A DNA stretch of 64,000 nt from the human T2T-CHM13v2.0 reference genome, Homo sapiens: assembly GCF_009914755.1 (NCBI RefSeq), contig NC_060926.1. The stretch is one strand, 5' to 3'. Below are positions 57,484-61,435 of the stretch, piece after piece; the first letter of the stretch is position 1, and each line of letters opens with the position of its first letter. A program made the position numbers and the translations under genes. The notes below the pieces were generated by a model. The model was given only the letters and a program-made list of their open reading frames with translations, ran no database searches and was not told the DNA's origin.

Positions 57484-59535
57484 ATTTTATTTATTTTGTT
57501 TATTATACTTTAAGTTCTAGGATACATGTGCACAATATGCAGGTTTGTTACATATGTATACATGTGCCATGTTGGTTGGTTGCACCCATTAACTCGTCAT
57601 TTACATTAGGTATTTCTCCTAATGCTATCCCCCCCAGTCCCCCCACCCCATGACAGGCCCCGGTGTGTGATGTTCCCTACCCTGTGTCCAAGTGTTCTCA
57701 TTGTTCAATTCCCACCTATGAGTGAGAACATGTGGTGTTTGGTTTTCTGTCCTTGTGATAGTTTGCTCAGAATAATGGTTTCCAGTTGCATCCATCTGCC
57801 TACAAAGGACATGAACTCATCTTTTTTTATGGCTGCATAGTATTCCATGGTGTATATGTGCCACATTTTCTTAATCCAGTCTATCACTGATGGACATTTG
57901 GGTTGGTTCCAAGTCTGCTATTGTGAATAGTGCTGCAATAAACATACATGTGCATGTGTCTTTATAGCAGCATGATTTATAATCCTTTGGGTATATACCC
58001 AGTAATGGGATCACTGGGTCAAATGGTATTTCTAGTTCTAGATCCTTGAGGAATCGCCACACTGTCTTCCACAATGGTTGAACTAGTTCACACTACCAAG
58101 AACAGTGTAATAACATTCCTATTTCTCCACATCCTCTCCAGTACCTGTTGTTTCCTGACTTTTTAATGATCACCATTTTAACTGGTGTGAGATGGTATCT
58201 CATTTTGGTTTTGATTTGCATTTCTCTGCTGACCAGTGATGATGAGCATTTTTTCACATGTCTGTTGGCTGCATAAATGTCTTCTTTTGAGAAGTGTCTG
58301 TTCATATCCTTCACCCACTTTTTGATGGGGTTGATTTTTTTCTTGTAAATTTGTATAAGTTCTTTGCAGATTCTGGATATTAGTTCTTTGTCAGATGGGT
58401 AGATTGCAAAAATTTCCTCCCATTCTGTAGGTTGCCTGTTCACTCTGATGGTAGTTTCTTTTGCTGTGCAGAAGCTCTTTAGTTTAATTAGATCCCATTT
58501 GTCTATTTTGGCTTTTGTTACCGTTGCTTTTGGTGTTTTAGTCATGAAGTCCTTGCCCATGCCTATGTCCTGAATGGTATTGCCTAGGTTTTCTTCTAGG
58601 GTTTTTATGGTTTTAGGTCTAACATGTAAGTCTTTAATCCATCTTGAATTAATGTTTGTATAAGGTGTAAGGAAGGAATGCAGTTTCAGCTTTCTACATA
58701 TGGCTAGCCAGTTTTCCCAGCACCATTTATTAAATAGGGAATCCTTTCTGCATGGCTTGTTTTTGTCAGGTTTGTCAAAGATCAAATGGTTGTAGATGTG
58801 TGAAGTTATTGTAGAGACCTCTGCTCTGTTCCATTGGTCTATATCTCTGTTTTGGTACCAGTACCATGCTGTTGTGGTTACTGCAGCCTTGTAGTATACT
58901 TTGAAGTCAGGTAGCATGATGCCTCCAGCTTTGTTCCTTTGGCTTAGGATTGTCTTGGCAATGCGGTCTCTTTTTTGGTTCCACGTGAACTTTAAAGTAG
59001 TTTTTCCCAATTCTGTGACAGAAGTCATTGGTAGCTTGATGGAGATGGCAGTGAATCTATAAATTGCCTTGGGCAGTATGGCCATTTTCACGAAATCGAT
59101 TCTTCCTCTCCATGAGCATGGAATGTTCTTCCATTTGTTTGTGTCCTCTTTTATTTCGTCGAGCAGTGGTTTGTAGTTCTCCTTGAAGAGGTCCTTCACA
59201 TCCCTTGTAAGTTGGATTCCTAGGTATTTTATTCTCTTGGTAGCAATTGTGAATGGGAGTTCACTCATGATTTGGCTCTCTGTTTGTCTTTTGTTGGTGT
59301 ATAGGAATGCTTGTGACTTTTGCACATTGATTTTGTATCCTGAGATTTTGCTGAAGTTGCTTATCAGTGTAAGGAGATTTGGGGCTGAGACAATGGGGTT
59401 TTCTAAATATACAATCATGTCATCTGCAAACAGGGACAATTTGACTTCCTCTTTTCCTAATTGAATACCCTTTATTTTTTCTCTTGCCTGATTGCCCTGG
59501 CCAGAACTTCCAACACTATGTTGTGTTGTTGTGTA

Positions 59536-59802
59536 GTGTAGTACGATGTCTAGTGATGAGTTTGCTAATACAATGCCGGTTAGGCCACCCACAGTGAAGA
59601 GAAAAATGAATCCCAGGGCTCAGAGCACTGCAGCAGATCACTTCATATTGCTTCCGTGGAGTGTAGCGAGTCAGCTAAATACTTTGACGCCGGTGGGGAT
59701 AGCGATGATTATGGTAGCGGAGGTGAAATAAGCTCGTGTGTCTACGTCCATTCCTACTGTAAATATATGGTGTGCTCACACAATAAACCCTAGGAAACCA
59801 AT
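59536..59802 (-). pseudogene. MT-CO1: NUMT: 267-bp mitochondrial COX1 fragment (approx. residues 280-368)
   Basis: In the vertebrate mitochondrial code the minus strand reads [89 protein letters not shown]: 89 codons, TGA=Trp four times, CuB HH motif, no indels. Confidence 0.98.
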
Positions 59803-61435
59803 GAAGTTCTTAGCATGAAGGGCTGTTGAATTTTGTCGAAGGCCTTTTCTGCATCTATTGAGATAATCATGTGGTTTTTGTCTTTGGTTCTGTTTATGTG
59901 ATGGATTACGTTTATTGATTTGCATATGTTGAACCAGCCTTGCATCCCAGGGATGAAGCCCACTTGAGTGTGGTGGATAAGCCTTTTGATGTGCTGCAGG
60001 ATTTGGTTTGCCAGTATTTTATTGAGGATTTTCGCATCGATGTTCATCAGGTGTATTGGTCTAAAATTCTCTTTTTTTGTTATTTCTCTGCCAGGCTTTG
60101 GTATCAGGATGATGCTGGCTGCATAAAATGAGTTAGGGAGGATTCTGTCTTTTTTTATTGATTGGAATAGTTTCAGAAGGATTGGTATCAGCTCCTCTTC
60201 CTACCTTTGGTAGAATCTGGCTGTGAATCCATCTGGTCCTGGACTTTTTTTGGTTGGTAGGCTATTAATAATTGTCTCAATTTCAGAGCCTGGTTATTGG
60301 TGTATTCAGGGATTCAACTTCTTCCTGGTTTAGTCTTGGCGGGGGTATATGTGTCCAGGAATTTATCCATTTCTTCTAGATTTTCTAGTTTGCTGTAAAC
60401 ACCTCTACACAAATATTCTCTGATGGTAGTTTGTATTTCTGTGGGATCGGTGGTGATATCCCCTTTATCTTTTTTTATTGAGTCTATTTGATTCTTCTCT
60501 CTTTTCCTCTTTGTTAGTCTTGCTAGTGGTCTGTCAATTTTGTTGATCTTTTCAAAAACCATCTCCTGGATTCACTGATTTTTTGAAGGGTTTTTTTGTG
60601 TCTCTATTTCCTTTAGTTCTGCTCTGATCTTAGTTATTTCGTGCCTTCTGGTAGCTTTTGAATTTGTTTGCTCTTGCTTCTCTAGTTCATTTTATTGTGA
60701 TGTTAGGGTGTTGATTTTAGATCTTTCCTGCTTTCTCTTGTGGGCATTTAGTGCTATAAATTTCCCTCTACATACTGCTTTAAATGTGTCCCAGGGATTT
60801 TTATGTTGTGTCTTTGTTCTTATTGGTTTCAAAGGACATCTTTATTTCTGCCTTCATTTCGTTATTTACCCAGTACTCATTCAGGAGCAGGTTGTTCAGT
60901 TTCCATGTAATTTTGCAGTTTTGAGTGAGTTTCTTAGTCCTTAGTTCTAATTTGATTGCACTGTGGTCTGAGAGACAATTTGTTGTGATTTCTGTTCTTT
61001 TACATTTGCTGAGGAGTGCTTTACTTTCAACTATGTGGTCAATTTTGGAATAAGTGTGATGTGGTGCTGAGAAGAATGCATCTTCTTTTGATTTGAGGTG
61101 GAGAGTTCTATAGATGTCTATTAGGTTGGCTTGGTGCAGAGCTGAGTTCAAGTCCTGCATATCATTATTACCCTTCTGTCTCGTTGATATAATATTGACA
61201 GCAGGGTGTTAATGTCTCCCATTATTATTGTGTGGGAATCTAAGCCTCTTTGTAGGTCTCCATGGACTTGCTTTTTGAATCTGGGTGCTCCTGTATTGGG
61301 TGCATATATATTTAGGATAGTTAGCTCTTCTTGTTGAATTGATTCCTTTACCATGATGTAATGCCCTTCTTTGTCTCTTTTGATCTTTGTTATTTTAAAG
61401 TCTGTTTTACCAGAGACTAGGATTACAACCCCTGC

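What the first reader, a model, noticed from the sequence alone, without database searches (positions are those of the whole stretch)
59524..59804. COX1 NUMT inserted into L1 ORF2 with ~155-bp target deletion and templated filler
Seen: L1-C stops at caacactatgttg (59523) and resumes at agttcttagcatgaag (59805). The missing segment is present in the other two L1s (12441-12594; 43632-43786), so ~155 bp were deleted and replaced by 267 bp of mtDNA. The left junction has a 12-bp filler tgttgttgtgta built from copies of adjacent words (tgttg from L1, gtgta from the NUMT). At the right junction both parents appear to carry ATTGA (observed: atga). There is no TSD or poly(A). Inference: mtDNA was captured at a double-strand break by end joining with Pol-theta-like features, after L1 integration. 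The result is one locus combining spliceosomal RNA, retrotransposon and mitochondrial DNA.
Basis: partly seen in the sequence, partly recalled or inferred. Interest (0 to 1): 0.75.

Follow-up and report, generated by a model that had tools for sequence, protein, structure and literature searches.

The report
Known COX1 NUMT inside an L1
A 273-base piece of the mitochondrial COX1 gene was patched into a broken old L1 element on human chromosome 2, replacing 155 bases; the event is real, but it and its deletion are already published and catalogued.

Summary
The core observation holds. An antisense L1 stops at 59523 and resumes at 59805. The stretch between reads as COX1 on the minus strand under the mitochondrial code. 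About 155 bp of the L1 reverse-transcriptase region is missing.

Two details need correcting. The mitochondrial part is 59530-59802, 273 bp rather than 267. The left filler is 6 bp (TGTTGT), not 12. The ATTGA shared by both parents at the right junction exists, but the observed junction is not its simple annealing product.

The event is already in print:
- It is HSA_NumtS_052 in RHNumtS.2, mt 6741-7012, 94.85% identity, confirmed by PCR and sequencing.
- It is numt id 82 in Hazkani-Covo & Covo 2008, one of 35 human-specific numts absent from chimpanzee and rhesus, with "deletion size 155".
- It is numt_355 at exactly these CHM13 coordinates, typed "fixed", in a 2026 pangenome catalogue.

Both junctions are unique in the genome. 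Of 15 differences from modern mtDNA, 14 are at third codon positions, so the copy came straight from mtDNA and has hardly decayed.

Best reading: end-joining capture of mtDNA at a double-strand break early on the human lineage. Polymerase theta involvement is unproven. Interest is low.

The parts
59530..59802 (-). NUMT: copy of mitochondrial COX1, mt positions 6741-7013. Known as HSA_NumtS_052, numt id 82 and numt_355.
   Evidence: Open 93-codon frame under table 2. Pfam COX1 E 2.7e-30, profile 250-341 of 436. Aligns to other NUMTs over exactly this span. Published alignment to human mtDNA has 14 mismatches in 272 and no indels. The catalogue coordinates chr2:49225530-49225802 equal this span.
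59524..59529 (.). Left-junction filler TGTTGT. Its first 5 nt repeat the last 5 nt of the L1 end (59519-59523).
   Evidence: Matches neither the L1 continuation (AATAGG in 11 of 11 closest copies) nor the mtDNA continuation seen in 6 of 6 longer NUMTs. Chance of such a tandem 5-nt copy is 0.0035; chance of any 5-mer copy within 25 nt is 0.13.
59803..59804 (.). Right-junction dinucleotide GA of ambiguous origin. It could be added nucleotides, or mtDNA continuing after loss of one T.
   Evidence: The gap-free NUMT alignments that reach this end all stop at 59802. L1 homology starts at 59805, and 11 of 11 closest copies end in AG before AGTT where the window has GA.
57477..59523 (-). L1-C, 3' part: the rest of ORF2, the 3' UTR and the A-rich tail.
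   Evidence: blastn to the two other L1 copies in the window. A-rich tail read.
59805..63687 (-). L1-C, 5' part: 5' UTR, ORF1 and ORF2 up to the reverse-transcriptase domain.
   Evidence: blastn 59805-63690 against 43631-39807. The missing piece lies in the RVT_1 domain of the intact paralogue.
63688..63793 (-). Full-length U6 snRNA copy fused to the 5' end of L1-C (context, RNU6-439P).
   Evidence: Rfam RF00026, 91.2 bits, model 1-105 of 105. The sequence runs straight into L1-like sequence, and L1 homology reaches 63690.

Best explanation
A double-strand break occurred in the germline of an early member of the human lineage, after the split from chimpanzee. It lay inside the reverse-transcriptase region of an old, fixed, dead U6-L1 insertion. 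About 155 bp of L1 was lost from the two ends. A free 273-bp fragment of mitochondrial DNA (COX1, mt 6741-7013) was ligated into the gap by end joining.

At one junction six nucleotides (TGTTGT) were added, five of which repeat the adjacent chromosomal end. At the other junction 0-2 nucleotides are of ambiguous origin. The insert has no function. It drifted to fixation and has barely mutated since.

Shown:
- the mitochondrial identity of the insert
- its boundaries
- the 155-bp loss
- the uniqueness of the junctions
- the lack of retrotransposition marks

Taken from print:
- absence in chimpanzee and rhesus
- fixation in humans

Inferred:
- that loss and insertion were a single event
- which end-joining pathway acted
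For: Identity of the insert: COX1 frame and Pfam match, and the published alignment to human mtDNA, 258 of 272 identical with no indels.

Boundaries: 9 of the 19 other NUMT loci compared align from 59530; the rest start 2 to 79 bases further in. All that reach the right end stop at 59802. The 6 laid out gap-free across the junctions continue with mtDNA on both sides where the window continues with L1.

The 155-bp loss: the in-window paralogue, 8 of the 11 closest L1 copies, and the independent published value of 155 from comparison with chimpanzee and rhesus.

Not retrotransposed: no poly(A), no target-site duplication. Both junction 35/36-mers occur once in 3.1 Gb at up to 3 mismatches. The other 39 genome matches to the insert cover only the mitochondrial part.

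Direct mitochondrial origin with little nuclear decay: 14 of 15 differences from modern mtDNA are at third codon positions, P = 2e-6 under even spread. There is one amino-acid change, 6 nt from the left junction.

Real locus: a PCR amplicon whose primers map to 59091-59111 and 59969-59988 was sequenced from an independent person and is identical by eye. The locus is typed 'fixed' in a pangenome catalogue.
Against: I could not look at any ape genome myself. Lineage specificity and the intact pre-insertion allele rest on a 2008 analysis of panTro2 and rheMac2. That analysis flagged this locus as having poorly aligned flanks, left both fusion points unclassified, and says deletion sizes were overestimated in case of doubt.

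A 155-bp loss is atypical. It is the second largest of the 90 in that study, where 49 of 90 insertions lost nothing.

The insert is slightly closer to two other NUMTs than to modern mtDNA. It is 95.6% identical to one on chrX and 96.4% over 196 bp to one on chr17, against 94.5-94.85% to mtDNA.

The divergence from modern mtDNA is large for a human-specific insertion, so the event must lie close to the human-chimpanzee split.
Confidence: 0.92

Rival explanations
1. The junctions were made specifically by polymerase-theta-mediated (alternative) end joining. On this view, long resection gave the 155-bp loss, and aborted templated synthesis copied TGTTG from the chromosomal end.
For: The deletion is far above the 0-2 nt typical of primate NUMT insertions. 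The filler's first 5 nt are a tandem copy of the adjacent L1 end, P = 0.0035 for that specific pattern.
Against: There is no usable microhomology at the left junction. The right junction is not the product of the available ATTGA microhomology. Under a broader definition of 'templated' the filler is not significant, P = 0.13. A later 5-nt slippage duplication in this TG-rich run would look the same. The published analysis of 152 NUMT junctions found patterns within classical NHEJ (abstract and sections read).
Confidence: 0.35
2. The 155-bp deletion and the NUMT insertion were two separate events at the same spot on the human lineage.
For: Nothing positive. It cannot be excluded, because no intermediate allele is available in the tools used here.
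Against: It requires two independent breaks at the same position within about 6 million years. One break with loss and capture explains everything. The published analysis scores it as one event.
Confidence: 0.04
3. The insert was copied from a pre-existing nuclear NUMT, for example the chrX or chr17 copy, rather than from mitochondrial DNA.
For: It is marginally closer to the chrX copy (12 differences in 273) and the chr17 copy (7 in 196) than to modern mtDNA (15 in 273).
Against: The chrX copy carries two amino-acid changes that the insert lacks. The chr17 copy does not cover mt 6741-6818. 6 of the 7 differences from the chr17 copy are third-position, which is mitochondrial-type change. No flank is shared with any other NUMT locus. 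Similar distances are expected for independent insertions of similar age.
Confidence: 0.03
4. Assembly chimera, or a NUMT carried inside the L1 RNA before retrotransposition.
For: None found.
Against: An independent PCR amplicon spans both junctions. The locus is present in hg18, GRCh38 and CHM13 and typed fixed. The junctions are unique among all L1 copies. The L1 is present without the NUMT in the outgroups according to the published table.
Confidence: 0.01

Closest known systems
HSA_NumtS_052 (RHNumtS.2, Simone et al. 2011, PMC3228558), numt id 82 (Hazkani-Covo & Covo 2008, PMC2567098) and numt_355.chrM:6740-7013 (PMC13179385)
   Same: This is the identical locus. It is listed at hg18 chr2:49310271-49310542 and CHM13 chr2:49225530-49225802, minus strand, mt 6741-7012/7013, 94.85% identity, deletion size 155, PCR- and sequence-validated, fixed.
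   Different: Nothing differs in substance. The papers left both fusion points unclassified ('ND'). In the supplement rows I read they do not mention the L1 host, the 6-nt filler or the U6 fusion.
NUMT insertion by non-homologous end joining at chromosomal breaks
   Same: No target-site duplication, no poly(A), no extended homology, and short added nucleotides at a junction.
   Different: The 155-bp chromosomal loss is an outlier. In the 90-event study 49 insertions lost nothing, and only one lost more, at 317 bp.
Polymerase-theta-mediated end joining with templated insertions
   Same: A larger deletion, and a filler whose first 5 nt copy the adjacent end.
   Different: No junctional microhomology was demonstrably used. 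The filler is too short to prove templating. Enzyme dependence cannot be tested on an ancient event.
U6/L1 chimeric retrocopies (host element only; Doucet et al. 2015 PMC4476161 and Moldovan et al. 2019 PMC6789731, seen as search listings only)
   Same: A full-length U6 is joined head-to-tail to an L1, with an A-rich tail and flanking direct repeats.
   Different: Here the L1 partner is essentially full length. I did not check how common that is.

Membership tests
NUMT (nuclear copy of mitochondrial DNA) | Sequence homology to the species' mitochondrial genome | tested here: met
   Pfam COX1 E 2.7e-30. Published alignment to human mtDNA, 258 of 272 identical.
NUMT (nuclear copy of mitochondrial DNA) | Reading frame makes sense only under the mitochondrial code | tested here: met
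   93 codons are open under table 2, with 4 TGA read as W. The same 4 TGA are counted as stops under the standard code.
NUMT (nuclear copy of mitochondrial DNA) | Embedded in chromosomal DNA with both junctions real | tested here: met
   Each junction occurs once in the assembly. Published primers map either side, giving an 898-bp amplicon that was sequenced.
End-joining capture of filler DNA at a double-strand break | No target-site duplication, no poly(A), no endonuclease-type insertion marks | tested here: met
   No A/T run of 6 or more in 59480-59850. The longest word shared by the 40-nt flanks is 5 nt.
End-joining capture of filler DNA at a double-strand break | No extended homology between insert and target that would allow recombination | tested here: met
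   The L1 and mtDNA continuations at both breaks are unrelated apart from a shared ATTGA.
End-joining capture of filler DNA at a double-strand break | An empty, intact site in the sister species | not testable with these tools
   No ape genome is held. In print, the numt is present in hg18 with gaps in panTro2 and rheMac2, and a 155-bp deletion is inferred from those genomes.
Polymerase-theta-mediated end joining | Junction formed at a microhomology of 2 nt or more | tested here: not met
   At the left junction a filler separates the partners. At the right junction the observed CCAAT-GA-AGTT is not the ATTGA-annealed product.
Polymerase-theta-mediated end joining | Templated insertion copied from nearby flank | tested here: inconclusive
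   TGTTG repeats the adjacent 5 nt. P = 0.0035 for a tandem copy, but 0.13 for any 5-mer within 25 nt.
Polymerase-theta-mediated end joining | Dependence on POLQ | not testable with these tools
   This is an ancient germline event.
L1-mediated retrotransposition of a mitochondrial transcript | Poly(A) tail and target-site duplication | tested here: not met
   The segment is also internal to COX1, profile positions 250-341 of 436.

The most novel reading that the evidence does not exclude
This locus may be a rare germline example of mitochondrial DNA captured by alternative, polymerase-theta-type end joining rather than classical NHEJ. The marks would be a 155-bp resection loss and a flank-copied filler. 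It would then be an exception to the published rule that NUMT capture protects breaks from deletion. The junctions, left unclassified in 2008, could seed a re-analysis of large-deletion NUMTs in complete ape genomes.
Probability: 0.3. Interest if true: 0.3.

Novelty: already known. Interest (0 to 1): 0.08.

Why it matters
It matters little beyond bookkeeping. The NUMT, its mitochondrial coordinates, its human-lineage specificity, its 155-bp associated deletion, its validation and its fixation are all in published tables. It sits in a dead L1 about 75 kb from the nearest protein-coding gene, FSHR, by the hub's gene table, and nothing suggests a function.

- junction boundaries at base resolution, which the 2008 study left as 'ND'
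- the observation that nearly all divergence from modern mtDNA is third-position, so the copy is an almost unaltered snapshot of a hominin COX1 from about the time of the human-chimpanzee split
- the note that the host L1 is a U6/L1 chimera

Tried and rejected
1. A side-lineage (hybridisation-type) donor mtDNA, in the manner of Popadin et al. 2022 (PMC9140377, passages read; that paper treats ps5, ps11 and ps7, not this locus).
- The insert and the chrX NUMT share G at mt 6794 and 6902 where modern mtDNA and older NUMTs have A.
- I reject this as evidence. Both are third-position A/G transitions. About 20 third positions changed between the older chr5 NUMT and this one, and about 11 changed on the modern branch. 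So roughly two reversals are expected by chance (my arithmetic).

2. Dating against the mitochondrial genome directly. The held assembly has 24 contigs and no mitochondrial contig. Modern mtDNA states were therefore read by eye from the published alignment, and older NUMTs served as the outgroup. No ape mtDNA was available, so the date 'near the human-chimpanzee split' rests on recalled divergence figures.

3. The supplement of the T2T NUMT paper (PMC10671835). The held copy is cut and shows only an accession list. A search for the coordinates found nothing. This says nothing about whether that paper lists the locus.

4. A full-text search for the catalogue name HSA_NumtS_052 found 0 papers. 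The name occurs only in supplements.

6. Extension of one chr2 NUMT match (L005) into the L1 flank (query 46-315) was not reproduced by blastn, which ended at 59802.
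Full report
**What is in the sequence**

Reading 59300-60000 and comparing it with the rest of the window shows an L1 lying antisense on the + strand.
- Its homology to the two other L1 copies in the window stops at 59523 and resumes at 59805.
- The intact sense copy holds 155 bp (43632-43786) between the matching points.
- I took the 11 closest L1 copies in the whole assembly, which are 95.5-96% identical over the 424 bp left of the break. 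Of these, 8 hold exactly 155 bp there and three hold 153, 153 and 143.
- The missing piece lies in the reverse-transcriptase domain. The open stretch 43602-44324 of the intact copy matches Pfam RVT_1 at E 6.8e-15.

**The insert is mitochondrial**

- On the minus strand, starting at 59802, table 2 gives 93 codons without a stop. Four TGA are read as tryptophan.
- The product matches Pfam COX1 at E 2.7e-30, profile positions 250-341 of 436.
- The assembly held here has 24 contigs and no mitochondrial contig. A search with 59500-59830 returned 40 matches: the locus itself and 39 other NUMTs. All of these cover only the central part of the query.

**Boundaries**

- blastn against 19 of those loci ends at 59802 in every alignment that reaches the right side. 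It starts at 59530 in 9 of the 19; the others start 2 to 79 bases further in.
- I laid out six gap-free loci with 45 nt beyond each end. All six continue with mitochondrial sequence where the window continues with L1. Five match 59530-59534 fully and one matches 4 of 5.
- At 59530 the window carries the base seen in 17 of the 19 other NUMTs, where modern mtDNA differs. This explains why one catalogue ends the match a base earlier.

**Junctions**

Left junction:
- The L1 ends …CTATGTTG at 59523. All 11 closest copies continue AATAGG.
- Six nucleotides, TGTTGT (59524-59529), follow. They match neither parent.
- Their first five repeat the last five of the L1 end.
- In 200,000 random 6-mers of local composition, a tandem 5-nt copy of an adjacent end occurred at frequency 0.0035. 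Any 5-mer copy within 25 nt on either strand occurred at 0.13. The templating claim is therefore suggestive at best. A later slippage duplication would look the same.

Right junction:
- The window reads CCAAT-GA-AGTT.
- Other NUMTs continue CCAAT-TGATAT.
- All 11 L1 copies end in AG before AGTT, and 7 of them read TTATTGAG there.
Annealing there would give CCAATTGAGAGTT, which the window does not have.
- The two bases 59803-59804 are therefore of ambiguous origin.

There is no A/T run of 6 or more and no flanking direct repeat longer than 5 nt. Retrotransposition of a mitochondrial transcript is excluded.

**Uniqueness and reality**

- Each junction, searched as a 35- or 36-mer with up to 3 mismatches, occurs once in 3.1 Gb.
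- The NUMT was therefore not spread with L1 RNA and is not part of a duplication.

**Already in print**

Simone et al. 2011 (PMC3228558; supplements searched; main-text passages):
- Supplement 1 lists HSA_NumtS_052: chr2, minus strand, mt 6741-7012, hg18 49310271-49310542, 94.85% identity.
- Supplement 3 marks it PCR yes, sequenced yes, HapMap yes, with an INSDC accession and primers.
- Those primers map to 59091-59111 (+) and 59969-59988 (-). The 898-bp amplicon spans both junctions.
- Supplement 2 prints the alignment of hg18, the amplicon and human mtDNA. The window's minus strand is identical by eye to the first two rows.

Hazkani-Covo & Covo 2008 (PMC2567098; abstract, sections 6, 9 and 12, Table S1):
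- The same hg18 interval is listed as numt id 82. It is one of 35 human numts with gaps at the reciprocal place in panTro2 and rheMac2.
- Its deletion size is given as 155. Both fusion points are marked 'ND' because of uncertain classification.
- Among their 90 events, 49 lost no chromosomal base. In Table S1 only one lost more, at 317 bp; the next largest losses are 60 and 42 bp.

A 2026 pangenome catalogue (PMC13179385; supplement searched only):
- It lists numt_355.chrM:6740-7013 at chr2 49225530-49225802.
- That is exactly window 59530-59802. It is minus strand, typed 'fixed', and present in GRCh38.

**Origin and age**

- The published alignment shows 14 differences in 272. With 59530 counted, there are 15 in 273.
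- Using the frame, 14 of the 15 fall on third codon positions. The other is a first-position change (Asp to Tyr) 6 nt from the left junction. P = 2e-6 for 14 or more of 15 under an even spread.
- Nearly all the divergence therefore arose in functional mtDNA, not in the nuclear copy.
- I polarised the differences with older NUMTs. About 9 to 11 changes lie on the branch to modern mtDNA. Three or four are private to the insert (mt 6812, 6929, 6953, 7008).
- About 4% change on the modern mitochondrial branch fits a capture close to the human-chimpanzee split. That calibration rests on recalled divergence figures, not on a call.

A nuclear donor is unlikely, for four reasons:
- The chrX NUMT, which differs at 12 of 273 positions, carries two replacements that the insert lacks.
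- The chr17 NUMT does not cover mt 6741-6818.
- The chr17 NUMT differs from the insert mostly at third positions, 6 of 7.
- No flank is shared with any other NUMT locus.

**Mechanism**

The most likely course is one germline double-strand break in a dead L1, loss of about 155 bp from the ends, and ligation of a free mtDNA fragment by end joining. A few nucleotides were added at one junction.

Whether classical NHEJ or polymerase-theta-type joining acted cannot be settled.
- The large loss and the flank-like filler lean towards the latter.
- The lack of any used microhomology leans towards the former. So does the published finding that NUMT junctions fit classical NHEJ.

**Context**

- The host L1 is essentially full length, 57477-63687 on the minus strand.
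- It is fused at its 5' end to a complete U6 copy (63793-63688; Rfam 91.2 bits; sequence).
- A roughly 14-nt direct repeat with one mismatch flanks the whole unit.
- This is the known U6/L1 chimera class (listings only).
- According to the 2008 table, the L1 site is alignable in rhesus. The host element therefore long predates the NUMT.

**Verdict**

The locus and its 155-bp deletion are already catalogued. Interest is low.

Noticed in passing
window 63688-63793 (-) with 57477-63687 (-): A complete U6 snRNA copy runs without spacer into the start of an essentially full-length L1. This is a U6/L1 chimeric retrocopy (RNU6-439P plus L1-C). It belongs to a known class; I did not check how common a full-length L1 partner is.
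   Followed up: partly
window 63794-63807 and 57472-57485: A roughly 14-nt direct repeat with one mismatch flanks the U6-L1 unit. Read on the minus strand it is ATAAAA[T/A]TTTTATG. The downstream copy merges with the A-rich L1 tail, so its true length is uncertain. It is consistent with a single target-primed insertion.
   Followed up: partly
L002 (G000:C23:124784610-124784882) and L004 (G000:C17:53980966-53981161): Two other COX1 NUMTs are 95.6% and 96.4% identical to this one, which is closer than modern mtDNA is. By its mitochondrial span (from about 6819), the chr17 copy appears to be numt id 27 of the 2008 human-specific list. The COX1 region seems to have been captured several times in a similar period.
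   Followed up: partly
mt 6794 and 6902 within window 59530-59802: This NUMT and the chrX NUMT share G at two third-codon positions where both modern mtDNA and older NUMTs have A. Reversal on the modern branch can explain this, but it was not tested against ape mtDNA.
   Followed up: partly
G000 as a whole: The held assembly has 24 contigs and no mitochondrial contig. From memory I expected a large young chr1 NUMT covering COX1, but it did not appear among the 40 DNA matches or the 101 COX1-profile matches.
   Followed up: no
L005 (G000:C2:50584800-50585069): Another, older COX1 NUMT (about 84% identical) lies 1.36 Mb away on the same chromosome. It appears to be the next catalogue entry, HSA_NumtS_053, whose alignment follows this one.
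   Followed up: no
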